Shown here in pieces: positions 5,112 through 44,125 of a DNA stretch of 45,154 nt. Every line of letters starts with the position of its first letter. Position 1 is the stretch's first letter. The notes under the pieces were generated by a model. The model worked only from the letters and a program-made list of their open reading frames with translations, did not search any database and was not told the origin of the DNA. The stretch covers positions 1 to 45,154 of the forward strand of contig JACQCV010000022.1 in assembly GCA_016201465.1 (NCBI GenBank), written 5' to 3'. The position numbers and the translations under genes are program-made. The stretch comes from Candidatus Vogelbacteria bacterium (GTDB taxonomy: Bacteria > Patescibacteriota > Minisyncoccia > Phycocordibacterales > UBA12445).

Positions 5112-5819
5112 ATGGTCAAAATAAAGATAGATATTTTATATGAGGACGACAGTGTTTTGGTTATAAATAAGCCGGCTGGTTTAGCCGTGCATGATGACGC
5201 AAATGGTAACCAAAAAAATACTGTTGTTAATTGGATTTTAAAAAAATATCCAAAAGTTAAGAAAGTGGGGGAAGACGAATCTCGTCCTGGAATTGTGCAC
5301 AGACTCGATAAAGATACCAGTGGCGTTTTAATAATCGCCAAGACACAACAGGCTTATGAATTAATTAAACAGCAATTTCAAAATCACCAGGTTAAAAAGG
5401 TATATCTGGCAATTGTTTATGGTGATATTAAAAAGGATGTAGGGATAATTGACCGTCCAATTGGGCGAAGTAAGAACGATTTTCACGCTAAGGCAACTGG
5501 TAGTGTAGCTCGCGGTGATCTGAAGCAGGCGGTTACTTATTATAAAGTTATCGAACATTTTCCCGGTTATACTTTATTAGAAATCCGTCCGAAGACTGGC
5601 CGAACGCATCAGATTAGGGCACATTTGAAATCTATAAGTTATCCGATAGTTTGTGATTCGGTATATGCAAAAGGAAGAGTCTGTTTGGACAAATTAAAAA
5701 GGCAGGCGTTGCACGCGTATTCTACAGAATTTATTTTACCTAATGGAAAGGACATTAAGGTTGAGGCGTCGATACCCAGCGATCTTTCAGCGGCTCTTGC
5801 TAATCTCAGGCGATTGTGA
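5112..5819 (+). CDS. RluA-family pseudouridine synthase (RluD/RluC-like catalytic domain, no S4 domain)
   Basis: Motifs [35 protein letters not shown] and [11 protein letters not shown] prefer the ATG at 5112 (M31 of the track ORF 5022..5819) because homology starts there. Confidence 0.85.
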
Positions 5820-6256
5820 TAGATTCTTTACTACTTATGCAACTAAATAACATCAAAGTTTCCCCTATTAATATAGAGGCAAGAAAAAAAATTAATATTA
5901 GACCGGGCGATACCGTCAGGGTTTCTTTGAAGATCAAGGAAAAAGATAAAGATAAAATCAAGATTCGTATTCAAGATTATGAGGGTTTGGTGATTGCCGT
6001 TAAGCATGGTAAAGAAAACGGTGGGACTTTTACAGTTAGGAAAGTTGCTAGTGGCGTTGGTGTCGAGAGAATTTTTCCCCTTTATTCTCCAGTCATAGAT
6101 AAAATTGAAATAAGAAAGAAATCTCGAGTAAGGAAGGCTAAATTGTATTACATTCACGACAAAGCTGCTAGAGAGATTAGCAGGAAGATGAGGAGAAGCG
6201 CTATGGTGTCGGAGGCGGTGGAAGAGACAGCCAAAGAGGTTGAAGAAACAAAATAG
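5816..6256 (+). CDS. rplS: 50S ribosomal protein L19 with an acidic C-terminal extension
   Basis: Motifs [30 protein letters not shown] and RKAKLYY. The GTG start overlaps the upstream stop (GTGA). An alternative ATG lies at 5837. Confidence 0.9.
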
Positions 6257-6261
6257 AATTT

Positions 6262-6288
6262 AAAAAAGAGCGCTCGCGCTCTTTTTTG
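6262..6288 (+). terminator. Rho-independent terminator after rplS
   Basis: aaaaaagagcgCTCGcgctctttttt: a GC stem flanked by an A-run and a T-run. Confidence 0.8.
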
Positions 6289-6551: not shown

Positions 6552-8279
6552 TTGGTGGTGAAATCAGTTAAATCTAAGAAAACTGCTAAGATTGATAAAA
6601 AATTAGCAATAGGTTTTTTTGTTTTTCTAATGTTTCTAATGGCGGTCACGGCTTATTTCCTTGGTGGGTCAGAAAAATTTACCTTTTTTAGGGCACTCCA
6701 GGCGGCTGTTGTTCAAGTGGGGTTAGTAATTTCTCCGGCTATGCCCACTGTAGGCACAATATATCCAGACCATGTTGAGAAGGGTGACACAATTGTAGTT
6801 CGTATCCAGGGAAAAGATTTTATAAGCGGCTTTGATCCCGTAGAAAAGATAACATTGTCACATAGAGGGGAAACAGCGGTGGTTTACTCTGCCGATGTGA
6901 ATGTTAAAGATGAGAAACAGTTGTCGTCAACCATAGACACCTCATCCCTGCCAGTCGGATTATATGACCTCAGGGTTGTAAACCAGTTTATGGGTAGAGA
7001 TATAGTAAGTACGACAGCAACTTCATTATTAATTTCTCCCAAAGTCGAATTGACTGATGGTGCGTCGCTTCCTATTATCCATACCACGTTGGAGTCTGCT
7101 CTTGACTATGCCGTGCCAGAAACAGTTGGCATAAGTAATAAATACACAACAGGAGGGTCTCTCACGATGGACCTGCCAAGTAATTTTTTATCTGATGATT
7201 CAAAGATCTTAAATCTAAAGGTTGATGCTTTTGATTACAAGAGCTATGTTGTGGGTGCTGGCGATTCGGGGACAGATATGCCTAATAATATGGGCGATAT
7301 TGGGGCTGTATATGATATTAAATTTTCTACTTCTGACAACCAGCCTGTGGCTAGCACAGATAAGCAAATTATGCTGTCTTTTAAGTACGATCCTGCGGTA
7401 TTGGCCCAAAAAGGTATCACCCCATCTACTCTTAAGATTTATCATTGGAACGTAAGTACTGGTGCATGGGAGGCTGTATCAAATTCTGTTGTGTCTGAGA
7501 TAGATAACACCGTTTCCGGGGCGGTCTCACAGTTTAGTCCATATACGGCTTTGGGTAATTACGCTTGTAGTGATGGTATAGATAACGATGGAGACGGTAA
7601 GATTGACTATCCGGCCGATCCTGCTTGTAAATCTCCAAGGTGGCTAAGTGAAGACAAGCCTCGTCCGTTTACTGGTGGGGGTACGGTCTATTATTATCCC
7701 AAGGTTAAAGCTATAACGACGGCGCCGCAGATCGCTAATCACGATACACAGCCGGTGCCTTCTGTTGGCCAGCCAAACAAAGTACAGACGCCTATTGTTA
7801 ATATAGTACGGACAAATGGCTCATCTTCGATTGTTCAGACTATCTCTCAAGCGGTTGCCAGTCCCGCCAATAGTTTAATTACCAAAACACTCCAATTTGG
7901 TTTGAAGGATGATCAAGTTAGGCTTCTGCAAATTAAATTAATGAAGGCGGGAGTATACAGCGGTCCAATCACTGGTTATTTTGGTGACATGACCAGGGTG
8001 GCCGTACTTGCTTACCAGAAGAGGAGTGGCATTTTACAAATCGGTGTTGTTGGCCCTGTCACTCAAGCTCGTTTGAATGCATCAACTGTTACAAAAACAC
8101 TACTAACGCCGAATGTTTCTTCTCAAACATCAAGCAAAAAAGACCAGGCAACAAAATATGTTAAGCCTCTCGCTGAAAACTTTTTGGTTCCGGCAAGTAT
8201 TAAGGAAAATGGAGATAAAGGTATGAGATTGATTTTGTATATGATTACTAACTTTTGGAAGGGACTCTGGATAAGATAG
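6552..8279 (+). CDS. Membrane-anchored exoprotein with a Cys/Asp-rich metal-binding-like motif and a C-terminal peptidoglycan-binding (PG_binding_1-like) domain
   Basis: N-terminal basic stretch plus TM helix (LAIGFFVFLMFLMAVTAYFL). CSDGIDNDGDGKIDYPADPAC motif. C-terminal LKDDQVRLLQIKLMKAGVYSGPITGYFGDMTRVAVLAYQKRSG. The start codon is uncertain (TTG at 6552, GTG at 6555/6558). Confidence 0.7.
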   Translation: MVVKSVKSKKTAKIDKKLAIGFFVFLMFLMAVTAYFLGGSEKFTFFRALQAAVVQVGLVISPAMPTVGTIYPDHVEKGDTIVVRIQGKDFISGFDPVEKITLSHRGETAVVYSADVNVKDEKQLSSTIDTSSLPVGLYDLRVVNQFMGRDIVSTTATSLLISPKVELTDGASLPIIHTTLESALDYAVPETVGISNKYTTGGSLTMDLPSNFLSDDSKILNLKVDAFDYKSYVVGAGDSGTDMPNNMGDIGAVYDIKFSTSDNQPVASTDKQIMLSFKYDPAVLAQKGITPSTLKIYHWNVSTGAWEAVSNSVVSEIDNTVSGAVSQFSPYTALGNYACSDGIDNDGDGKIDYPADPACKSPRWLSEDKPRPFTGGGTVYYYPKVKAITTAPQIANHDTQPVPSVGQPNKVQTPIVNIVRTNGSSSIVQTISQAVASPANSLITKTLQFGLKDDQVRLLQIKLMKAGVYSGPITGYFGDMTRVAVLAYQKRSGILQIGVVGPVTQARLNASTVTKTLLTPNVSSQTSSKKDQATKYVKPLAENFLVPASIKENGDKGMRLILYMITNFWKGLWIR

Positions 8280-21706: not shown

Positions 21707-21778
21707 GGTGGCTATGGTGTAGCGGTAGCACACGAGCTTGTGGAGCTCTTAGTCTGGGTTCAACTCCCAGTAGCCACC
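21707..21778 (+). tRNA. tRNA-His (anticodon GUG) with encoded G-1; CCA not encoded
   Basis: Folded by hand. G-1 (21707) pairs with C73 (21778). Acceptor GTGGCTA/TAGCCAC and D stem GTGT/GCAC. Anticodon loop TTGTGGA has GTG at 21740-21742. T arm is CTGGG-TTCAACT-CCCAG. Confidence 0.85.
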
Positions 21779-22108
21779 CCTTGAAAGACTACTAGCTAGT
21801 TCTAGTAGCAAGTTGTAAGGGGAACGTAAGGTAAACTCTAAGTTTTTTCCATTTACTGTTGGGTTCTGAAGTATGTAATTCAAGAATTGCCTCTTTTCAC
21901 TTGGTTCAGAACTCTCAAATATAGACTTAGCTCTACGAGCGATATAAAACACTGTAGCTACCGTGGTTTGATAATCATGGTCAGCTTTTGTGTGTTCTTC
22001 TAGTTCTATGTTCAAGAGCTGTATCTTGTCGTGGTAGTCCTGGTGCCTTTTGTCATACATGTCCTTAGTAATACGCCATAAGAAAGTTATTTTTCTAAAT
22101 AAAAGCCT
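21749..22108 (-). pseudogene. C-terminal remnant of a large serine recombinase, abutting or overlapping the 3' end of tRNA-His
   Basis: ITKDMYDKRHQDYHDKIQLLNIELEEHTKADHDYQ...ARRAKSIFESSEPSEKRQFLNYILQNPTVNGKNLEFTLRSPYNLL matches the coiled-coil/C-terminal tail pattern of recombinase-family proteins. No catalytic N-terminal domain is present. The first 25 codons of the track ORF are just antisense translation of the 260-bp repeat. Confidence 0.5.
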
Positions 22109-22109
22109 T

Positions 22110-22369
22110 AAAATAAGCCTTTTCTCACCAACCCATTGACAAAACATATAATAGTATGCTATACTTTCGCTAGATAAAAACAATAAAAAGCTAGCTCTTC
22201 ACATCAAATAAAAGTTCAAAAACCTTGATGCGCATCCCAACGTGGAGGCATCATATACCTCGATTAAATTCGAGGGGAAGGAGCTGTCATCATGACGGTA
22301 CATGAGACTGTCGCCGACGGCAAACTTGGGAACGAGGAGCTTGGTCAATTCACCCGCAAGGTGGACGAA
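22110..22369 (+). repeat. 260-bp direct repeat, left copy: promoter, ~125-nt leader and the first 26 codons of the 204-aa ORF
   Basis: Near-identical to 43808..44068. Differences are about 10 substitutions or indels, clustered just after the -10. Confidence 0.9.
22136..22165 (+). promoter_or_regulatory. Consensus promoter TTGACA, 18 nt spacer, TATACT
   Basis: TTGACA at 22136-22141 and TATACT at 22160-22165. Downstream leader hairpins are tgatgc...gcatca and cctcga-ttaaat-tcgagg, just before the SD GGAAGGAG. Confidence 0.6.
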
Positions 22370-22906
22370 ATCAAGCGACGCCTCAACGAAGGAACGATTA
22401 CCCTCTCTTGGGCACTGAATGAGCTTCAGCGCATCATCGAGGGTCGTCAGTCCGTGAGCGACCTGGTCATCGACTTCGACGCCACGCCCATGATTCCGTC
22501 GGGCTTGGAAATCCGAGAGTCCGACCAAATCGCATCCCGCTTCAAGGGCAAGTGGACCTTCAATGCGAAGGCACTCGCTCTCTACCTCTCCAAGAAGCAG
22601 AAACAGGGCAAGCTCATCAAGGGCCATGACCTCAAGGACGACCTCGACGGCGAGAAGGTCATGGGAGCACAGCTTCTCGACTTCTACCTGAAGAACCCGC
22701 ACCTCATCCCCGACGAATGGAAGGGGAAGGCCACGTTCTTCTGGGGAACCATCTACCGCGGCTCGTTCGGGGACCTCTGCGTCCGCTACCTGTACTGGAG
22801 TGGCAAGGCGTGGGACTCGGACTACAACTGGCTGGACAACAACTTCAACGATACGAACCCCGCGTTGCTCGCTAATCTCTTCATTTCTCCTCTGGCTTTT
22901 TGCTAG
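22292..22906 (+). CDS. Candidate DGR variable (target) protein; GC-rich 204-aa ORF with an Asn/Asp/Tyr/Trp-rich C-terminus
   Basis: Line 22401-22460 is 36/60 G+C. The C-terminus is FFWGTIYRGSFGDLCVRYLYWSGKAWDSDYNWLDNNFNDTNPALL. Position is next to avd and RT. The last ~12 codons (from ~22872) are AT-rich and are antisense to the avd 3' end. Confidence 0.5.
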   Translation: MTVHETVADGKLGNEELGQFTRKVDEIKRRLNEGTITLSWALNELQRIIEGRQSVSDLVIDFDATPMIPSGLEIRESDQIASRFKGKWTFNAKALALYLSKKQKQGKLIKGHDLKDDLDGEKVMGAQLLDFYLKNPHLIPDEWKGKATFFWGTIYRGSFGDLCVRYLYWSGKAWDSDYNWLDNNFNDTNPALLANLFISPLAFC

Positions 22907-23317
22907 GGGAGTTTTGTTTACTCTGGGCTATGTCGAGAGGCTTAACTTTAACCTCCTCAACCTTTCTTGTAACCTGCCCATTCCACCCTCCAAGCATCTT
23001 TCCTATCTCATTGAGTGGCATGGAAACAGCAATATATTTATTGTTATCTAAAGACTTTGTTTCCCAGAGGACCATGAGTAATATCTTTAATGTATCTGTC
23101 TTCCTAATAGCTATTCTAATCCAAGGTTGTTTCTCCTCTTTAGATAAGAAGCTGGCAATCGCTATAGATTCGATAATTTCTATGAATAAGGCATCAATTC
23201 TTTGTCCCAGAGAATGTCTATGGTCCTTAGGTAATACCTGGTAGTATCCATACCATAAGATATATACACTCTTAACCCTTTGTAGCAGGGGTAGAATCGG
23301 GGGGGGGGTAACTTCAT
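22881..23317 (-). CDS. avd: DGR accessory variability determinant (Avd, four-helix-bundle family), interrupted by a frameshift in a C10 tract
   Basis: Hand translation of the minus strand gives ATG(23317) AAG TTA C10. The long frame after the tract reads ILPLLQRVKSVYILWYGYYQVLPKDHRHSLGQRIDALFIEIIESIAIASFLSKEEKQPWIRIAIRKTDTLKILLMVLWETKSLDNNKYIAVSMPLNEIGKMLGGWNGQVTRK. This is Avd-like, including the EIGxxLGGW signature. The span is 437 nt, which is not a multiple of 3. C11 or C8 would restore a 145-aa ORF. Confidence 0.7.
23299..23308. repeat. G10/C10 homopolymer inside the avd 5' end, 22 nt upstream of the RT start codon
   Basis: cgg gggggggg ta, counted directly. It is the longest G/C run I saw in this AT-rich window. 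Confidence 0.95.
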
Positions 23318-23329
23318 GGTTTTATTTAT

Positions 23330-24343
23330 ATGACCAACAGAATCAAATTTATTCATAACTACGATACTATCATTTCTCTCGAAAATTTGCTTGAAGCCTG
23401 GAAAGAGTTTCGAAACAACAAAAAATCTCGAAAAGATGTCCAAGAATTTGAAAGAAACTTGATGGAGAATATATTATTGCTCCACAAAGAACTCCTAACA
23501 AAAACCTATAAACATTCTTCTTATGAAGCTTTTAACATTTCTGACCCTAAACCAAGGAGGATACACAAGGCGAAGGTCCGAGATAGACTACTTCACCACG
23601 CCATATACAGAAAACTGTATCCCTTCTTTGATAAGACATTTATAGCTGACTCTTACTCGTGTCGTTTCGAGAAGGGGACCCATAAGGCTTTAGAAAGATT
23701 TCATTCTTTTTCTCAAAAGGTTTCAGGTAATAGGACCAAAGCCGTCTGGGTTCTCAAGTGTGACATACGAAAATTCTTTGCTTCAATAGACCAAAGTATT
23801 CTCATCGGAATCGTTAAGGAGTATGTATCAGATCAAAATATCACCTGGCTTATTTCAGAAATCGTTTCTAGTTTTCATTCGACGAAGGAAGGCGTCGGCT
23901 TGCCCTTAGGGAATTTAACCTCCCAACTTCTCGTAAATGTATACATGAATAAATTTGACCAATTTATGAAGCATAGGGTTAAGGCCAAATATTACATTCG
24001 TTATGCCGACGACTTTGTGATTATGTCTCAAGATAGAAAGTGGCTTGAAGAAGTATTAATTAAAATCAAGAAGTTTCTACATGAGAAGCTTAAATTAGAA
24101 TTACATCCGAACAAAGTCTCAATCGAAACACTATCTTCGGGGGTAGATTTTCTTGGTTGGGTTAACTTTCCAGACCATAGAGTTATGAGAACAACGACTA
24201 AGAAGAGGATGTTTAGAAATATTAAGACTAGAGAAGGGAAGCCCGAGGTTGTTCAATCCTATCTTGGACTCTTGAGTCATGGAAATGGGAAGAGGTTGCA
24301 GGATGGGATAGCTAAATTAAATACACAAGTTGGTAATAAGTGA
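23330..24343 (+). CDS. Diversity-generating retroelement reverse transcriptase
   Basis: Motifs SLENLLEAWKEF, DPKPRRIHKAKVRDRLLHHAIY, SYSCRFEKGTHKAL, LKCDIRKFFASIDQ and FLGW. GLPLGNLTSQLLVNVYMN carries the DGR-specific [LI]GxxxSQ (LGNLTSQ at 23906-23926). YIRYADDFVI has YADD at 24002-24013. Confidence 0.9.
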   Translation: MTNRIKFIHNYDTIISLENLLEAWKEFRNNKKSRKDVQEFERNLMENILLLHKELLTKTYKHSSYEAFNISDPKPRRIHKAKVRDRLLHHAIYRKLYPFFDKTFIADSYSCRFEKGTHKALERFHSFSQKVSGNRTKAVWVLKCDIRKFFASIDQSILIGIVKEYVSDQNITWLISEIVSSFHSTKEGVGLPLGNLTSQLLVNVYMNKFDQFMKHRVKAKYYIRYADDFVIMSQDRKWLEEVLIKIKKFLHEKLKLELHPNKVSIETLSSGVDFLGWVNFPDHRVMRTTTKKRMFRNIKTREGKPEVVQSYLGLLSHGNGKRLQDGIAKLNTQVGNK

Positions 24344-24355
24344 TAGAATGACGGT

Positions 24356-24865
24356 ATGAAAAACCCAGAAAAATTTACCCCCTACATTAAAGAAGAAGCC
24401 AAGAAAATAATTGAAGAGGTTAAGGAAACATTAGCTAAGGACTTCGGTCTCACGGAATTTACCCAAGTTGAGTTTTTTGAACTTCAACACGCACTACAAG
24501 AAGTTATGGAAGTTTATCCTGTGAAGATAAAACCTGTAACAGCCCAAGAAAAGATAGAGTATGTCCACTCAAAAAGTGTTTTTGGTTCTACCAAACTTGA
24601 AGTCATTGACCGCTGGCTTAGCAGAACTCATCACGTGAGAATAATAGATGTTCCTGTCCGTTATGTATTAACCGACCAGAAGACAGATGAACAATTTATG
24701 TTTAATGGTAAAGACTGTTCTTCAGGAAACAATACCTTGAAACAAGCCTGGCAGAAAAAATTTGAACTTCAAAAACTTGGTCATAGTGGAGTCATTTCTG
24801 GAGGTATTACAGAAGAGTTTAAGGAGATGCTTAGAGAGGACTCCAAGAAAAGGGAGATTATTTAA
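24356..24865 (+). CDS. Hypothetical protein, 12 nt downstream of the RT stop
   Basis: 169-aa ORF. I recognise no family. Confidence 0.5.
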   Translation: MKNPEKFTPYIKEEAKKIIEEVKETLAKDFGLTEFTQVEFFELQHALQEVMEVYPVKIKPVTAQEKIEYVHSKSVFGSTKLEVIDRWLSRTHHVRIIDVPVRYVLTDQKTDEQFMFNGKDCSSGNNTLKQAWQKKFELQKLGHSGVISGGITEEFKEMLREDSKKREII

Positions 24866-24940
24866 TTGACTTCTTGATTTTCTAATGTTAGTTTAGCATC
24901 CAGAACTCTCGTTTTTTGATAGACCAAAGGAGGTCTGAGG

Positions 24941-25498
24941 ATGACAGCTCAAAAGTTGCCAGTTTTTCCTAATTGGTTTCCATATAACGATATGCTTCTT
25001 GATGGACATATGAAAGTTGATGGGCACGAAGGTGTGAAGTCTAGATGTTGGGAATGGAACTATCGGGGGCCAGTATTGCTCTATAACTCCCTGAGAACTG
25101 CTAAGCCTGCAGTTAAGGCGTACGATTATACGAACAGTTCTGAAAACCATAAGGTAATCGTTGGAGTTGGTGAGTTGGTTGAAGTAAGAGGGTTTACGGT
25201 GGACGAAGCCGCACAGATGCTTGCAAACTTCAACAATATTTCACTCGACAAGATTAAGATTGCCCTTCGAAATATCAAGAGAAAGATGCCGAGCTACAGG
25301 CCCGAAGAAATCATCTACAACTTCTTTCAATTCGGGCCGTACATCGCTCCATTCAGAACAGGCTTCTTCTTCAAGAACCTGAGACGCTTCGACAAGCCAG
25401 TTTCTTTCAATTGGCCTGCTGGCCCAATCAAACCTATTTTTACTCAAGTTGTTCCTGGTTCGGAACTTGGTAAGCAGCTCAAACGAGCTGGGTTCTAA
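24941..25498 (+). CDS. Hypothetical protein (possibly an ASCH/PUA-like fold)
   Basis: SD AAGGAGG upstream. CWEWNYRGPVLLYNS ... IVGVGELVEVRGF is reminiscent of ASCH domains, but this is a weak call. Confidence 0.45.
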   Translation: MTAQKLPVFPNWFPYNDMLLDGHMKVDGHEGVKSRCWEWNYRGPVLLYNSLRTAKPAVKAYDYTNSSENHKVIVGVGELVEVRGFTVDEAAQMLANFNNISLDKIKIALRNIKRKMPSYRPEEIIYNFFQFGPYIAPFRTGFFFKNLRRFDKPVSFNWPAGPIKPIFTQVVPGSELGKQLKRAGF

Positions 25499-25515
25499 GA
25501 CAAGGAGGAAGCACA

Positions 25516-25989
25516 ATGTCTGATAGTTCAAAAGTTCTTGTAGCTGAAGCCAAATACACTCCAACGTCACTACTGGATATTATCTACGAGAAATGTGGCC
25601 ACGTGGGGCCTAGTTCTGCAGTTCTCGATTTCTATGGAAGAATAGTTGACTTCAAGATTCCCGAGAGAATTTACCAAGAAAAGAATGTGGAAGTTGGTTC
25701 TCCCATAACTATTGACGACCATTCTTGTCCCAAATGTGACTTTGAGAAATTCAAGATTGTTGTCATCCGTTGCGCCGTTTGTGGAGAGGGAATTTGCCCA
25801 GGTGATGAAATAGCTCTTTACGCAAAGGAAAGTAAGGCATTGAATCTTTCTATCGCCACAAGGGTTGGTGAAGAGATTGTCGGTTGTCTAAAGCAAGGCT
25901 GTGGCCCTGCTGCTGCCCTTGCTGGCAGATGGACAGAGAATGGATTTGAGCCCTTTGACTTTTCAAAAATGGTAATTCAACCATGGTAA
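25516..25989 (+). CDS. Hypothetical Cys-rich (zinc-ribbon-like) protein
   Basis: SD AAGGAGGAAG upstream. CPKCDFEKF...CAVCGEGICPGD gives paired CxxC motifs. Confidence 0.5.
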   Translation: MSDSSKVLVAEAKYTPTSLLDIIYEKCGHVGPSSAVLDFYGRIVDFKIPERIYQEKNVEVGSPITIDDHSCPKCDFEKFKIVVIRCAVCGEGICPGDEIALYAKESKALNLSIATRVGEEIVGCLKQGCGPAAALAGRWTENGFEPFDFSKMVIQPW

Positions 25990-42085: not shown

Positions 42086-43795
42086 ATGACTCAGAACGAG
42101 GCAATTTCGATACTTAAGACCGGTGCGAACGTATTTATAACCGGCGAGCCAGGTTCAGGTAAAACACATGTTGTAAATCAGTACGTCAGATATCTGGATA
42201 ATCACGGCGTTGAAGTCTCTGTTACAGCATCGACTGGTATTGCCGCTACCCACATAGGTGGACTAACAATACATTCTTGGAGTGGAATTGGTATTAAAGA
42301 TAGATTAACTTCTCATGATCTTGATCGAATTGCTTCGACCGAATATATAGCTAAGAGAGTTGGGCGTTCCAAGGTTCTTATAATCGATGAGGTTTCGATG
42401 CTCTCGCCAGAGATTTTGACTATGGTTGATATGGTTTGTCAAGAAATAAAGCAAAGAGAGTCTCCGTTTGGAGGCCTACAAGTTATTTTAGTTGGCGACT
42501 TTTTCCAGCTTCCGCCTGTAGTTAGAGTCAATTCAGACGAAGGTTCACAAATCTCTTTATTAGATGAAGAGGGAACCACAAATCGGTTTGCCTTTTGTTC
42601 ATCAGTTTGGGCCAAAGCCGGTTTGACTACTTGTTATCTGACCGAGCAGTATCGCCAAGATGATCAGGTTTTTCTTTCAATACTTTCCGCAATACGAAAA
42701 AATACATTTGGCGGGGAACACTTGAAACATCTTAATAAACGGAAAGTTTTACCGAATGCTATGCCGTCAAATGTACCGAAACTTTTTTCACACAATGTAA
42801 ATGTTGATACTGTTAACGACGCGACACTTGAGAGAATCAAGGATAAAAAGGAAATTTTTCAGATGATGTCAAGTGGACACGATGCTTTAGTTGCAATTTT
42901 AAAGAGAGGGTGTCTTTCGCCTGAAACACTTGCTCTTAAATTGGGAGCCGAAGTAATGTTTACTAAAAATAGCCAACAAGAGGGCTATGTGAATGGAACA
43001 TTGGGAACGGTTATCGGATTTGAGAGTGATAGACGATATCCGAAGATCAAATTAAGAAATGGAAAAATTTTGACTGTTGAACCGACAGAATGGATTGTCG
43101 AAGAGAACGGTAAGATTAAGGGTAAGATCGTCCAGATCCCGCTCCGTTTGGCCTGGGCGATAACAGTTCACAAAAGCCAGGGGATGAGTATGGATGAAGC
43201 GATCATGGATCTCTCTAGAGTCTTTGAATATGGTCAGGGATATGTGGCACTTTCACGGGTACGTAGATTATCCGGACTTTACCTCTTGGGCTGGAACGAG
43301 CGTGCCTTTAAAGTGCATCCGGACATTTTGACTAAAGATGAAGAGTTTAGGATAAGTTCAGAAGCTGCTCGTGAAGGTTTCGCTAAGATGAATCAAAATG
43401 AGCTAACTGAGATGCATAATAATTTTATAATCGCCTCGGATGGGAGTTTAAATGCTTTGAAAAAATCAAAGACGGGCGAAATCAAAGAGCAAGATACAAA
43501 ATTAATTACCCTGGAGCTTTGGAAACAAAATAAGAGTGTTCCAGATATTGCTAAGATTAGAAGAGTTAAGGTGCAAACAATTTTTTCACATATTGAGGAT
43601 TTAGTTGAAAAGGGAAGAATAGATCGTGACGATTTAAGAGCGACTCTTTCTCCAGATGCTCTGAGGGATTTGGTGAAAATCCACGCCGCTTTCAGAGATC
43701 TTGCTACTGATCGGCTCACACCTGTGTATAAAAAGTTTAACGAAAAGTATTCGTTCGAGGACATCCGTATTGCGAGGATGTTGTTAATTAGGTAG
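42086..43795 (+). CDS. Pif1/RecD-like superfamily-1 DNA helicase with a C-terminal HTH-like domain
   Basis: Walker A GEPGSGKTH and Walker B LIIDEVSML. Also VGDFFQLPPV, EQYRQ, ITVHKSQGMSMD and YVALSRVR. Confidence 0.85.
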   Translation: MTQNEAISILKTGANVFITGEPGSGKTHVVNQYVRYLDNHGVEVSVTASTGIAATHIGGLTIHSWSGIGIKDRLTSHDLDRIASTEYIAKRVGRSKVLIIDEVSMLSPEILTMVDMVCQEIKQRESPFGGLQVILVGDFFQLPPVVRVNSDEGSQISLLDEEGTTNRFAFCSSVWAKAGLTTCYLTEQYRQDDQVFLSILSAIRKNTFGGEHLKHLNKRKVLPNAMPSNVPKLFSHNVNVDTVNDATLERIKDKKEIFQMMSSGHDALVAILKRGCLSPETLALKLGAEVMFTKNSQQEGYVNGTLGTVIGFESDRRYPKIKLRNGKILTVEPTEWIVEENGKIKGKIVQIPLRLAWAITVHKSQGMSMDEAIMDLSRVFEYGQGYVALSRVRRLSGLYLLGWNERAFKVHPDILTKDEEFRISSEAAREGFAKMNQNELTEMHNNFIIASDGSLNALKKSKTGEIKEQDTKLITLELWKQNKSVPDIAKIRRVKVQTIFSHIEDLVEKGRIDRDDLRATLSPDALRDLVKIHAAFRDLATDRLTPVYKKFNEKYSFEDIRIARMLLIR

Positions 43796-43807
43796 AAGGT
43801 ATCTTGT

Positions 43808-44068
43808 AAAATAAGCCTTTTCTCACCAACCCATTGACAAAACATCTAATAGTATTCTATACTCTGTTCAGATAAAAATAATAAAAAGCTAGCTCTTCAC
43901 ATCAAATAAAAGTTCAAAAAACCTTGATGCGCATCCCAACGTGGAGGCATCATATACCTCGATTAAATTCGAGGGGAAGGAGCTGTCACCATGACGGTAC
44001 ATGAGACTGTCGCCGACGGCAAACTTGGGAACGAGGAGCTTGGTCAATTCACCCGCAAGGTGGACGAA
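43808..44068 (+). repeat. 260-bp direct repeat, right copy
   Basis: See the left copy at 22110..22369. Confidence 0.9.
43834..43863 (+). promoter_or_regulatory. Second copy of the TTGACA, 18 nt spacer, TATACT promoter
   Basis: TTGACA at 43834-43839 and TATACT at 43858-43863. Confidence 0.55.
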
Positions 44069-44125
44069 TCCCAGTCTCACCCCACGTCGGTAACGGCGTG
44101 GGTTTTTCTTTTTTTAAATTTGTAA
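43991..44125 (+). pseudogene. Truncated second copy of the 204-aa ORF (26 shared codons plus 18 unrelated codons)
   Basis: It encodes MTVHETVADGKLGNEELGQFTRKVDE, identical to 22292.., then SQSHPTSVTAWVFLFLNL*. At 44 aa it falls below the ORF-track cutoff. Confidence 0.6.
44081..44115 (+). terminator. Rho-independent terminator
   Basis: cccacgtc-ggtaac-ggcgtggg followed by TTTTTCTTTTTTT. Confidence 0.8.

What the first reader, a model, noticed from the sequence alone, without database searches (positions are those of the whole stretch)
22292..22906. GC-rich candidate DGR target whose 3' end is replaced by antisense avd sequence
The 204-aa ORF is about 60% GC (36/60 in 22401-22460), against 18/60 in the neighbouring RT gene (23341-23400). 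It has a strong SD. It ends in a Tyr/Trp/Asn/Asp-rich stretch, RGSFGDLCVRYLYWSGKAWDSDYNWLDNNFNDTNPA. That stretch contains a run gac aac aac ttc aac gat acg aac, the kind of AAC/NNC-codon patch seen in DGR variable regions. Composition switches abruptly to AT-rich at about 22872. The last ~12 codons (NLFISPLAFC*) are simply the complement of the avd 3' end. This suggests the original C-terminus, and any IMH element, was lost at a rearrangement breakpoint. The mismatch in GC and codon usage between the putative target and its own RT/avd is also odd for a co-evolving cassette. The segment could alternatively be the TR itself rather than a VR.
Basis: partly seen in the sequence, partly recalled or inferred. 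Interest (0 to 1): 0.6.

Follow-up and report, generated by a model that had tools for sequence, protein, structure and literature searches.

The report
DGR target gene fused to template
The GC-rich gene is a genuine target of a targeted-hypermutation element (a diversity-generating retroelement) of ultra-small groundwater bacteria, but a small deletion has welded its variable end onto the element's template, which most likely leaves the mutator without a separate template and target: ordinary decay of a known system.

Summary
ORF 22292-22906 is real. It is 58% GC and 81% GC3; the RT is 37% GC. Composition switches at 22872.

The ORF belongs to a widespread Patescibacteria family of about 190-200 aa. 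The last ~45 residues vary on a fixed scaffold.

All of the ~70 related RT loci that include the upstream flank have the known CPR layout B3, TR-(inverted avd)-RT. Nine carry this target family as target-VR, a 315-397 nt spacer, TR, (avd), RT. Their VR/TR differences fall almost only at template adenines.

In the window the spacer and one repeat copy are missing. The gene runs through a single repeat (22754-22872) straight into the flank that follows the TR in relatives. That flank is identical in a same-genus cassette.

So VR and TR have merged through a deletion of roughly 450-600 nt. Only the last native residue is replaced, and ten foreign codons are added. The VR-side flank is lost.

k=31 contigs from two runs cross the junction without branching, so an assembly artefact is unlikely.

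No second copy exists in the 74%-complete genome. avd is out of frame at a C10 tract. The cassette is probably inactive.

The GC mismatch is a conserved trait of these cassettes.

The parts
22136..22165 (+). Promoter-like site of the target gene (TTGACA, 18 nt, TATACT, with TG extension)
   Evidence: Matches 11 of 12 consensus positions. Conserved in the closest homologue L001 and in the second copy at 43834-43863.
22278..22283 (+). Shine-Dalgarno AAGGAG, 8 nt before the ATG
   Evidence: Read directly from the sequence.
22292..22906 (+). 204-aa ORF: a DGR target-family protein (native residues 1-194) with a 10-residue foreign tail, NLFISPLAFC
   Evidence: 148 homologues of about 190-200 aa in Patescibacteria metagenomes, E down to 1e-112. 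Conserved scaffold FFWGTIYR..G.L.VRYL.W.G..W.W...WL...W....PA with hypervariable positions. AlphaFold2 mean pLDDT 89, with a disordered tail.
22754..22872 (+). The single VR/TR hybrid repeat. The 5' part (22754-22822) is diversified like a VR. The 3' part (22823-22872) keeps adenines like a TR.
   Evidence: It aligns with the 119-127 nt TR/VR pairs of nine relatives. At sites that vary among four VRs, the window has A at 5/20 in the 5' part and 12/15 in the 3' part. Two diversified VRs have 4/15 in the 3' part, and the same-genus VR has 9/15.
22873..22886 (+). TR-type 3' flank (TAATCTCTTCATTT). The breakpoint relative to VR-type flanks lies at 22872/22873.
   Evidence: After the TR, relatives read CTCTCTTCATTTCTC. 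After the VR they read GTTGA.... The same-genus G002 TR ends GCTCGCTAATCTCTTCATTTCTCCTCT, identical to the window.
22887..22921 (+). Conserved stem-loop (CTCCTCTGGC / GCTAGGGGAG) plus TTTTGTTTAC that follows the TR. It overlaps the last codons of avd on the other strand.
   Evidence: Called as a terminator-like site. It is conserved in 11 cassettes, with changes on both sides at 4 of 8 pairs. Folding of 22861-22925 gives -20.8 kcal/mol.
22881..23317 (-). avd accessory gene, inverted relative to the RT. Its ATG at 23315-23317 is out of frame with the body (22884-23294).
   Evidence: Pfam bAvd match at 5.7e-10. Translation. 29-71% identical to the inverted avd of about 70 relatives.
23299..23308 (.). 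G10 tract (C10 in avd codons 4-7), between the avd start and the RT start
   Evidence: Read from the sequence. A G7-G12 tract lies at the same place in 55 of 68 relatives scored, and two others carry (CTGG)n there. The tract is read as G10 in the contig of run X1.
23330..24343 (+). DGR reverse transcriptase, 337 aa, uninterrupted ORF with the YADD motif
   Evidence: Pfam RVT_1 match at 7.5e-25. 59-71% identical to 80 metagenome RTs and 77% to the same-genus G002 RT.
43807..44125 (+). Decayed second copy of the target gene. It keeps the promoter, leader and first 26 codons (43807-44068, 96% identical to 22109-22369), then joins directly to a terminator.
   Evidence: Repeat found. It corresponds to a less-deleted degenerate copy in same-genus genome G001, which has the same terminator AGTCTCACCCCAC.TCGGTAACG..GTGGG.

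Best explanation
The locus is a CPR-type diversity-generating retroelement of the known architecture B3: target gene with VR, spacer, TR, inverted avd, RT. Its two repeats have collapsed into one.

A deletion between the VR at the end of the target gene and the TR removed four things:
- the VR's 3' part or flank;
- the native stop codon;
- the VR-side recognition flank and terminator;
- the spacer and the TR's 5' part.

The loss is about 450-600 nt. The deletion arose by homologous recombination or replication slippage between direct repeats of about 120 nt.

What remains is promoter, full-length target ORF, and one hybrid repeat (VR-like in its 5' part, TR-like in its 3' part). After that come the TR's own 3' flank and stem-loop, the antisense avd, and the RT.

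Shown: the anatomy, the family context, the TR-type flank, and the absence of a second copy.

Inferred:
- The element can no longer carry out mutagenic retrohoming on this gene. There is no recipient repeat with a VR-type flank, and no template distinct from the gene.
- The variable region is therefore frozen.
- avd is also out of frame in the consensus.
- The protein itself is essentially intact and may still be made.
For: 1. **Target family.** There are 148 homologues of the same length. Variation is concentrated in the last ~45 residues.
2. **Distribution of differences.** Against the 89%-identical P0002, 16 of the roughly 22 amino-acid differences fall in the last 50 residues.
3. **Architecture.** avd is inverted next to the RT in every one of the ~70 related RT loci that include the upstream flank. 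This is architecture B3, TR-(avd)-RT, which accounts for 90% of CPR DGRs in PMC5758913. The genome's second DGR, on C20, has the same layout, and its VR on C42 differs from the TR only at adenines.
4. **Unfused relatives.** Nine relatives have target-VR, a 315-397 nt spacer, then the TR 10-46 nt from avd. They show 12-23 TR/VR mismatches, and 96% of these fall at TR adenines. Same-genus G002 has its VR 477 nt upstream of its TR.
5. **Flank identity.** The window's sequence from 22873 on matches the TR flank and not the VR flank. The match includes a stem-loop with compensatory changes. It is letter-for-letter identical to the G002 TR end.
6. **No second copy.** No other copy of the repeat exists in the genome in either direction.
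7. **Read support.** Logan contigs (assembled by Logan from each public run) in two runs cross 22569-23500 and 22454-23282 with zero differences. No unfused form appears even at 80% likeness.
8. **Related decay.** Same-genus G001 keeps an orphan copy of the gene (91% nt) with a VR flank and terminator but has no RT. So cassettes of this genus are decaying in different ways.
Against: - The crossover point cannot be fixed. The adenine-rich 3' half (12/15) does not differ significantly from the same-genus genuine VR (9/15). Only the flank from 22873 on is unambiguously TR-type.
- No unfused ancestor of this exact cassette was found. The closest RT is 77% identical.
- Only contigs were available, at 5-7x depth, and no raw reads. 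A minority unfused form cannot be excluded.
- The genome is 74% complete, so remote targets could exist in the missing part.
- The RT ORF is intact, which is not what long-term decay predicts. The deletion is probably recent.
Confidence: 0.8

Rival explanations
1. Assembly collapse. The real genome has the normal target-VR, spacer, TR order, and the assembler jumped from VR to TR through shared words.
For: VR and TR are near-identical repeats about 450 nt apart, a classic trap for assemblers. Depth is low, at 5-7x. Earlier notes of this scan record such collapses in other contigs.
Against: - An independent k=31 assembly of two runs passes through the junction without a break or branch.
- A retained spacer loop would force a break at the shared node.
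- No contig at matching depth carries a TR 5' half, a spacer or a VR-type flank of this gene, even at 80% likeness. The partial hits are other DGRs with different sequence or depth.
- X1 and X2 differ from the window at 9 positions in 22148-22290, so they are not simply the same assembly.
Confidence: 0.07
2. A working single-repeat or 'template inside a gene' arrangement. The hybrid repeat still serves as the TR for remote targets in the unassembled quarter of the genome, or the gene's own transcript templates its own diversification.
For: - The RT ORF is intact.
- The TR 3' flank and stem-loop are intact.
- The 3' half keeps its adenines.
- The gene has a strong promoter that would transcribe the repeat and flank.
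- The genome is only 74% complete.
Against: - None of the 14 relatives with this family's TR has the gene fused to it.
- There is no VR partner in 756 kb.
- The 5' half has already lost the adenines that every relative's TR keeps.
- avd is out of frame.
- The recipient-side flank seen after every VR is absent.
Confidence: 0.08
3. An unrelated illegitimate rearrangement, or insertion of a mobile avd-RT module, happened to land at the end of the gene. The TR was lost separately.
For: The region is an integration hotspot next to tRNA-His, with recombinase remnants. The gene family also occurs far from any RT.
Against: - The junction lies exactly at the 3' end of the VR/TR homology.
- The next 50 nt are the conserved TR flank, at the normal distance from avd.
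- A random join would not reproduce this to the base.
Confidence: 0.05

Closest known systems
CPR-type DGRs of architecture B3, TR-(avd)-RT (Wu et al. 2018, Nucleic Acids Res., PMC5758913; CPR/DPANN DGRs of Paul et al. 2017 as cited there)
   Same: - An RT of the same clade, 59-77% identical to cassettes with proven adenine-only TR/VR pairs.
- avd inverted and head-to-head with the RT.
- The repeat lies directly upstream of the antisense avd.
- The target gene is on the RT strand upstream.
- AAC-rich codons at the variable positions.
   Different: There is only one repeat copy. The spacer, the VR-side flank and the terminator are missing, so the target ORF reads into the TR flank. avd is out of frame in the consensus.
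Bordetella phage BPP-1 DGR (mtd-VR, avd, TR, brt), the reference system
   Same: The same parts list and the same logic: an invariant template, adenine-specific mutagenesis, a recipient repeat at the 3' end of a target gene, and a donor and recipient told apart by what follows the repeats (established knowledge; summarised in PMC5758913).
   Different: - avd is inverted.
- TR and VR are identical over their last ~20 nt in this clade, with no IMH/IMH* mismatch. The distinction lies entirely in the flanks.
- The target is a small protein of about 195 aa with an unassigned fold, not a phage tail fibre.
Collapsed or truncated DGR remnants noted elsewhere in this scan (VR/TR hybrids with 290-650 nt lost)
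   Same: The same failure mode: a deletion between the two direct repeats leaves a target gene that ends in a template-like repeat next to the RT (AI notes, not checked here).
   Different: Those cases are in other lineages and architectures. Here the RT is still intact, and the hybrid lies in a B3 cassette in which the TR flank overlaps antisense avd.

Membership tests
Diversity-generating retroelement (DGR) | Reverse transcriptase of the DGR clade | tested here: met
   Pfam RVT_1 match at 7.5e-25. 59-77% identity to RTs of cassettes with adenine-only TR/VR pairs. The YADD motif is present.
Diversity-generating retroelement (DGR) | A TR/VR repeat pair whose differences lie at template adenines | tested here: not met
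   Only one copy of the repeat exists in the 756-kb, 74%-complete genome, searched in both directions. Relatives meet the criterion. The window is a remnant, not a complete DGR.
Diversity-generating retroelement (DGR) | Accessory variability determinant (Avd) | tested here: inconclusive
   The bAvd domain is present at 5.7e-10. No in-frame start exists: the ATG is out of frame across a C10 tract.
Diversity-generating retroelement (DGR) | Target gene with the variable region at its 3' end, followed by a recipient-side flank (IMH side) | tested here: not met
   The variable C-terminus is present. The flank after the repeat is the TR type, not the VR type.
DGR architecture B3, TR-(avd)-RT (PMC5758913) | Order and orientation: repeat, inverted avd, RT | tested here: met
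   Repeat at 22754-22872 (+), avd at 22881-23317 (-), RT at 23330-24343 (+). The layout is the same in about 70 relatives. Definition read.
C-type-lectin-fold DGR variable proteins (Mtd, TvpA, AvpA, TaqVP) | CLec fold that carries the variable residues | tested here: inconclusive
   The model is confident, with pLDDT 89. The best PDB matches have E about 1. Several are C-type-lectin domains (BDCA2, EMS16, rhodocetin) at TM 0.34-0.42 only. Nothing significant in BFVD. A PDB profile search gave no lectin or DGR variable-protein match, only two chance-level kinase hits at E 0.7-0.8. Pfam gave nothing.
Simple-sequence contingency locus (the tract in avd, a side observation) | A repeat tract conserved in position and variable in length among relatives, placed so that length changes shift the reading frame | tested here: met
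   G7-G12 in 55 of 68 relatives, and (CTGG)n in two others at the same place. Length variation within one population could not be tested, because only contigs were available.

The most novel reading that the evidence does not exclude
The fused copy is not dead. One repeat would act as both the gene's variable region and the element's template. Either it donates to remote targets in the unassembled quarter of the genome, or it is rewritten from its own transcript. A self-rewriting template would progressively use up its own adenines. The adenine-poor 5' half and adenine-rich 3' half would then be a snapshot of that process.

A second open point is the strong, conserved GC3 excess of these target genes over their own RT (81% against 39% here). 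This might reflect a mechanism and not ancestry.
Probability: 0.08. Interest if true: 0.6.

Novelty: new member of a known kind. Interest (0 to 1): 0.27.

Why it matters
- **Explains the missing template.** It explains why this DGR appeared to have no template repeat, and why a GC-rich gene runs into antisense avd. A normal CPR cassette has lost the roughly 0.5 kb between its two repeats.
- **Guidance for annotation.** DGR finders that require a TR/VR pair will miss such loci. A target ORF ending in the conserved TR flank (CTCTTCATTTCTC, stem-loop, GAGTTTTG) is a simple diagnostic for the collapse.
- **A characterised target family.** It documents a widespread, unannotated target family of Patescibacteria, about 195 aa long. 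The family has a confident predicted fold that matches no solved structure.
- **A family trait.** It shows that these targets are always much more GC-rich than their own RT. The reason is unknown.
- **No new mechanism.** The finding does not reveal any new way of working.

Tried and rejected
- **Structured RNA instead of a gene.** Rfam finds only the two tRNAs in the window, and the protein family is strong. Rejected.
- **Foreign DNA or a chimeric contig as the cause of the GC jump.** The same GC offset occurs in all nine related cassettes and in the closest homologues. It is a family trait, so this is rejected as an explanation of the junction.
- **A hidden TR or VR partner.**
  - An adenine-tolerant sliding search found only the window's own copy. 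It used 60-nt windows, allowed up to 6 non-A mismatches, and covered both strands of all 44 contigs.
  - blastn with word size 7 gave the same result.
  - tblastn found only the gene and its 26-codon remnant.
- **The 262-nt direct repeats (22109-22369 and 43807-44068) as attachment sites of a 21.7-kb element.** The second copy corresponds to a degenerate copy of the gene in a sister genome. It is a decayed paralogue, so this is not pursued.
- **A mid-repeat crossover shown by adenine retention.** The result is suggestive (Fisher p about 0.004-0.01 at a post-hoc cut). It weakened once the same-genus VR was added (9/15 against 12/15). I do not rely on it.
- **Fold assignment.** PDB and viral fold searches, a PDB profile search and Pfam gave nothing significant.
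- **The avd start.**
  - Only 16 of 55 relatives with a tract have an ATG just upstream of it, and 3 of these are in frame.
  - How avd is initiated stays unresolved.
- **ORFs downstream of the RT (24356-25989).** They are not conserved next to related RTs.
- **Literature.** Searches for a described poly-G tract in DGRs, or for TR x VR deletions, found nothing specific.

Full report
**1. The observation**

The 204-aa ORF at 22292-22906 exists as described.
- GC is 36/60 in 22401-22460 and 18/60 in 23341-23400. It is 58% over 22292-22872.
- GC3 is 0.81 in the ORF. It is 0.39 in the RT, 0.41 in avd and 0.33-0.36 in three large neighbouring genes.
- AAGGAG lies 8 nt before the ATG. A TTGACA-18-TATACT promoter-like site lies at 22136-22165.
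- On the minus strand, 22884-23294 translates to a bAvd-family protein (Pfam 5.7e-10). Its stop codon is at 22881-22883, so the last 26 nt of the ORF are antisense avd.
- The RT (RVT_1, 7.5e-25) starts at 23330, 12 nt from the avd ATG, on the opposite strand.

**2. The ORF is a real gene of a DGR-target family**

A search of 5.8 billion proteins gave 148 homologues. Nearly all are 140-235 aa, and where a source is named it is Patescibacteria: Nomurabacteria, Parcubacteria, Paceibacterota or Doudnabacteria.

Alignments show a conserved body and a C-terminal scaffold, FFWGTIYR..G.L.VRYL.W.G..W.W...WL...W....PA. The positions between the fixed residues are hypervariable. Against the 89%-identical P0002, 16 of the roughly 22 amino-acid differences lie in the last 50 residues.

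Homologues end two or three residues after PA..A, for example ...PALLAS*. The window's ORF therefore lacks only the last native residue and carries ten extra ones.

Rfam finds no RNA family in the region.

**3. What the normal cassette looks like**

A scan of metagenome contigs with the RT returned 80 loci at 59-71% identity.
- In every one of the ~70 loci that include the upstream flank, avd lies on the opposite strand, head-to-head with the RT.
- This is the published architecture B3, TR-(avd)-RT. [quoted passage not shown]
- Fourteen loci have a short match to residues ~153-203 of the window's protein directly upstream of the antisense avd. Nine of them also have a full-length homologue further upstream.

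Nucleotide alignment of these nine gives repeat pairs of 119-127 nt at 81-90% identity.
- There are 12-23 mismatches per pair. Of 166 mismatches in total, 163 lie at adenines of the avd-proximal copy.
- So the avd-proximal copy is the TR, and the copy at the end of the gene is the VR.
- The VR ends 315-397 nt before the TR. The TR ends 10-46 nt from the avd match.
- TR and VR are identical over their last ~20 nt (...CCCGC.GC.TTGCG.GCAA) and then diverge. After the VR comes GTTGA..., followed by CCCTTTGA/TTTGACC-like motifs. After the TR comes CTCTCTTCATTTCTC, a stem-loop, and GAGTTTTGTTT.

The stem-loop is conserved in 11 cassettes, with changes on both sides at 4 of 8 pairs.

The window's own genome holds a second DGR on contig C20 with the same layout. 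Its TR lies on the RT strand upstream of the antisense avd. Its VR is on contig C42, at the end of a protein of at least 999 aa, and every mismatch falls at a TR adenine.

**4. What the window has instead**

The gene runs through one repeat (22754-22872). At 22873 it passes directly into TAATCTCTTCATTTCTCCTCTGGCTTTTTGCTAGGGGAGTTTTGTTT. This is the TR-type flank with its stem-loop (22887-22911), at the normal distance from avd.
- A same-genus genome, G002, carries the closest cassette (RT 77%, avd 66%). Its TR ends GCTCGCTAATCTCTTCATTTCTCCTCT, letter for letter as in the window. Its VR lies 477 nt upstream.
- The closest copies of the gene continue after GCGTTGCTCGC with AAGCTGA or AAGCTCC. They are L001 at 90% nt, and L099 from same-genus G001 at 91% nt.
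- In L099 there then follow CTGAACTTTTAGACCCTTGGTCCTTTGACC and a terminator.

So the 5' side of the repeat is joined to a target gene, and the 3' side is joined to a TR flank. The stop codon, VR flank, terminator, spacer and one repeat copy are absent, about 450-600 nt by comparison with relatives. A deletion between the two direct repeats gives exactly this.

**5. Where the crossover lies**

At sites that vary among four VRs, the window has A at 5/20 sites upstream of 22823 and at 12/15 downstream. L001 and L086 have 4/15 downstream. The window's downstream codons (TAC AAC .. GAC AAC AAC TTC AAC GAT ACG AAC) match the TR state of relatives.

This fits a crossover near 22823. However, the same-genus VR in L099 keeps 9/15, so the contrast is not decisive. 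Only the flank from 22873 on is unambiguous.

**6. Real or assembled?**

Two public groundwater runs hold the stretch, with 0.87 and 0.69 of sampled words.
- Their Logan contigs (k=31) cross the junction with zero differences: 22569-23500 in X1 at depth 7.2, and 22454-23282 in X2 at depth 5.7.
- A retained spacer would form a loop at a shared node and would break these contigs.
- At 80% likeness the only other matches are pieces of other DGRs, with different sequence or depth. None is a TR 5' half, spacer or VR flank of this gene.
- X1 and X2 differ from the window at nine positions in 22148-22290, so they are not the same consensus.

I therefore take the deletion as real. A minority unfused form cannot be excluded from contigs at 5-7x.

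**7. Consequences (inferred)**

No second copy of the repeat exists in the genome in either direction. The genome is 74% complete. Without a recipient repeat that carries the VR-type flank, and without a template distinct from the gene, mutagenic retrohoming onto this gene should have stopped.

avd has no in-frame start: ATG AAG TTA C10 is one base short or two bases long. The RT ORF is intact, so the event is probably recent.

The genus shows other decay.
- G001 has the gene with its VR flank but no RT at all.
- Both G001 and the window carry a degenerate second copy. In the window this is 43807-44125, reduced to the promoter, 26 codons and a terminator.

**8. The GC question**

In all nine related cassettes the target gene is 10-24 GC points above its RT. 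The TR is also high. Stand-alone copies are 53-60% GC in 40-44% GC contigs. Two distant members match their surroundings.

The mismatch is therefore a trait of the family and not evidence of a mismatched cassette. It is not adenine avoidance, because A is 24% and T is 18%. I have no tested explanation.

**9. Fold**

AlphaFold2 with 70 sequences gives mean pLDDT 89. The model has a helical N-terminus and a compact alpha/beta domain over residues 58-195. The foreign tail is below pLDDT 50.

Foldseek finds nothing significant in the PDB or BFVD. The best PDB hits include C-type-lectin domains at TM 0.34-0.42 and E about 1. Profile and Pfam searches give no lectin or DGR variable-protein match. 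A C-type-lectin relationship is neither shown nor excluded.

**10. Comparison and verdict**

This is a member of a known kind, a CPR B3-type DGR, in a broken state. It fails the defining TR/VR-pair test because the pair has merged. The finding is explained and of modest interest.

Noticed in passing
window 23299-23308: A G10 tract (C10 in avd codons 4-7) puts avd out of frame with its ATG. A G7-G12 tract lies at the same spot in 55 of 68 related cassettes, and (CTGG)n replaces it in two. Most relatives have no ATG upstream of the tract, or an out-of-frame one. It looks like a slippage switch on avd. Earlier notes of this scan describe the same tract in many genomes. I found no paper on it.
   Followed up: partly
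genome contig C20 5286-6800 (L004) and C42 about 22348-22478: A second, apparently complete DGR of the same B3 layout. The RT is at 5286-6281 (-), avd at 6273-~6580 (+), and the TR on the RT strand at about 6610-6740. Its VR, on another contig, differs from the TR only at adenines and ends a protein of at least 999 aa with a P-loop motif. A perfect 71-nt inverted repeat at the C20 end (6820-6961) looks like an assembly artefact.
   Followed up: partly
window 22292-22872 and nine related loci (L013, L019, L032, L035, L039, L061, L071, L077, L082): Target genes of these cassettes are always far more GC-rich than their own RT and avd. Here GC3 is 0.81 against 0.39, and the GC gap is 10-24 points in all nine relatives. 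The cause is unknown. It is not adenine avoidance.
   Followed up: partly
window 21900-22369 joined to 44069 onward, in run X2: A 2,079-nt Logan contig of run X2 joins the left flank of the first copy (tRNA-His side) through the 262-nt repeat to the right flank of the second copy. That form would lack 22370-44068, including the whole DGR. In X2 both alternative branches have coverage gaps next to the repeat (22386-22439 and 43593-43806). It may therefore be graph simplification and not a real 21.7-kb deletion variant. In X1 both copies share one repeat sequence, which differs from the window's first copy at nine positions.
   Followed up: partly
L099 (G001 C20, downstream of the gene), L100 and L106 (G002, upstream of the TR): A conserved element of about 70 nt, ATATACAAAA(C/T)GGTAGTAGGTGA(A/G)TATG ... 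GCTAC(T/C)GAATCCAGTATCCATA. It follows the target gene's terminator in G001 and lies in the VR-TR spacer of G002. It may be the promoter or 5' part of the TR transcript. It is absent from the window, as expected if the spacer was deleted.
   Followed up: no
related loci, 30-60 nt after each VR; L099; C42 target: Short repeated motifs of the type (G/A)ACCCTTTG(A/G) or CCTTTGACC follow the VR in most cassettes of this clade and never follow the TR. They are candidates for the recipient-side recognition element.
   Followed up: no
window 21749-22108 (-): A C-terminal remnant of a serine-recombinase-like gene overlaps the 3' end of tRNA-His (21708-21780). It is cut off where the 262-nt repeat begins.
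   Followed up: no
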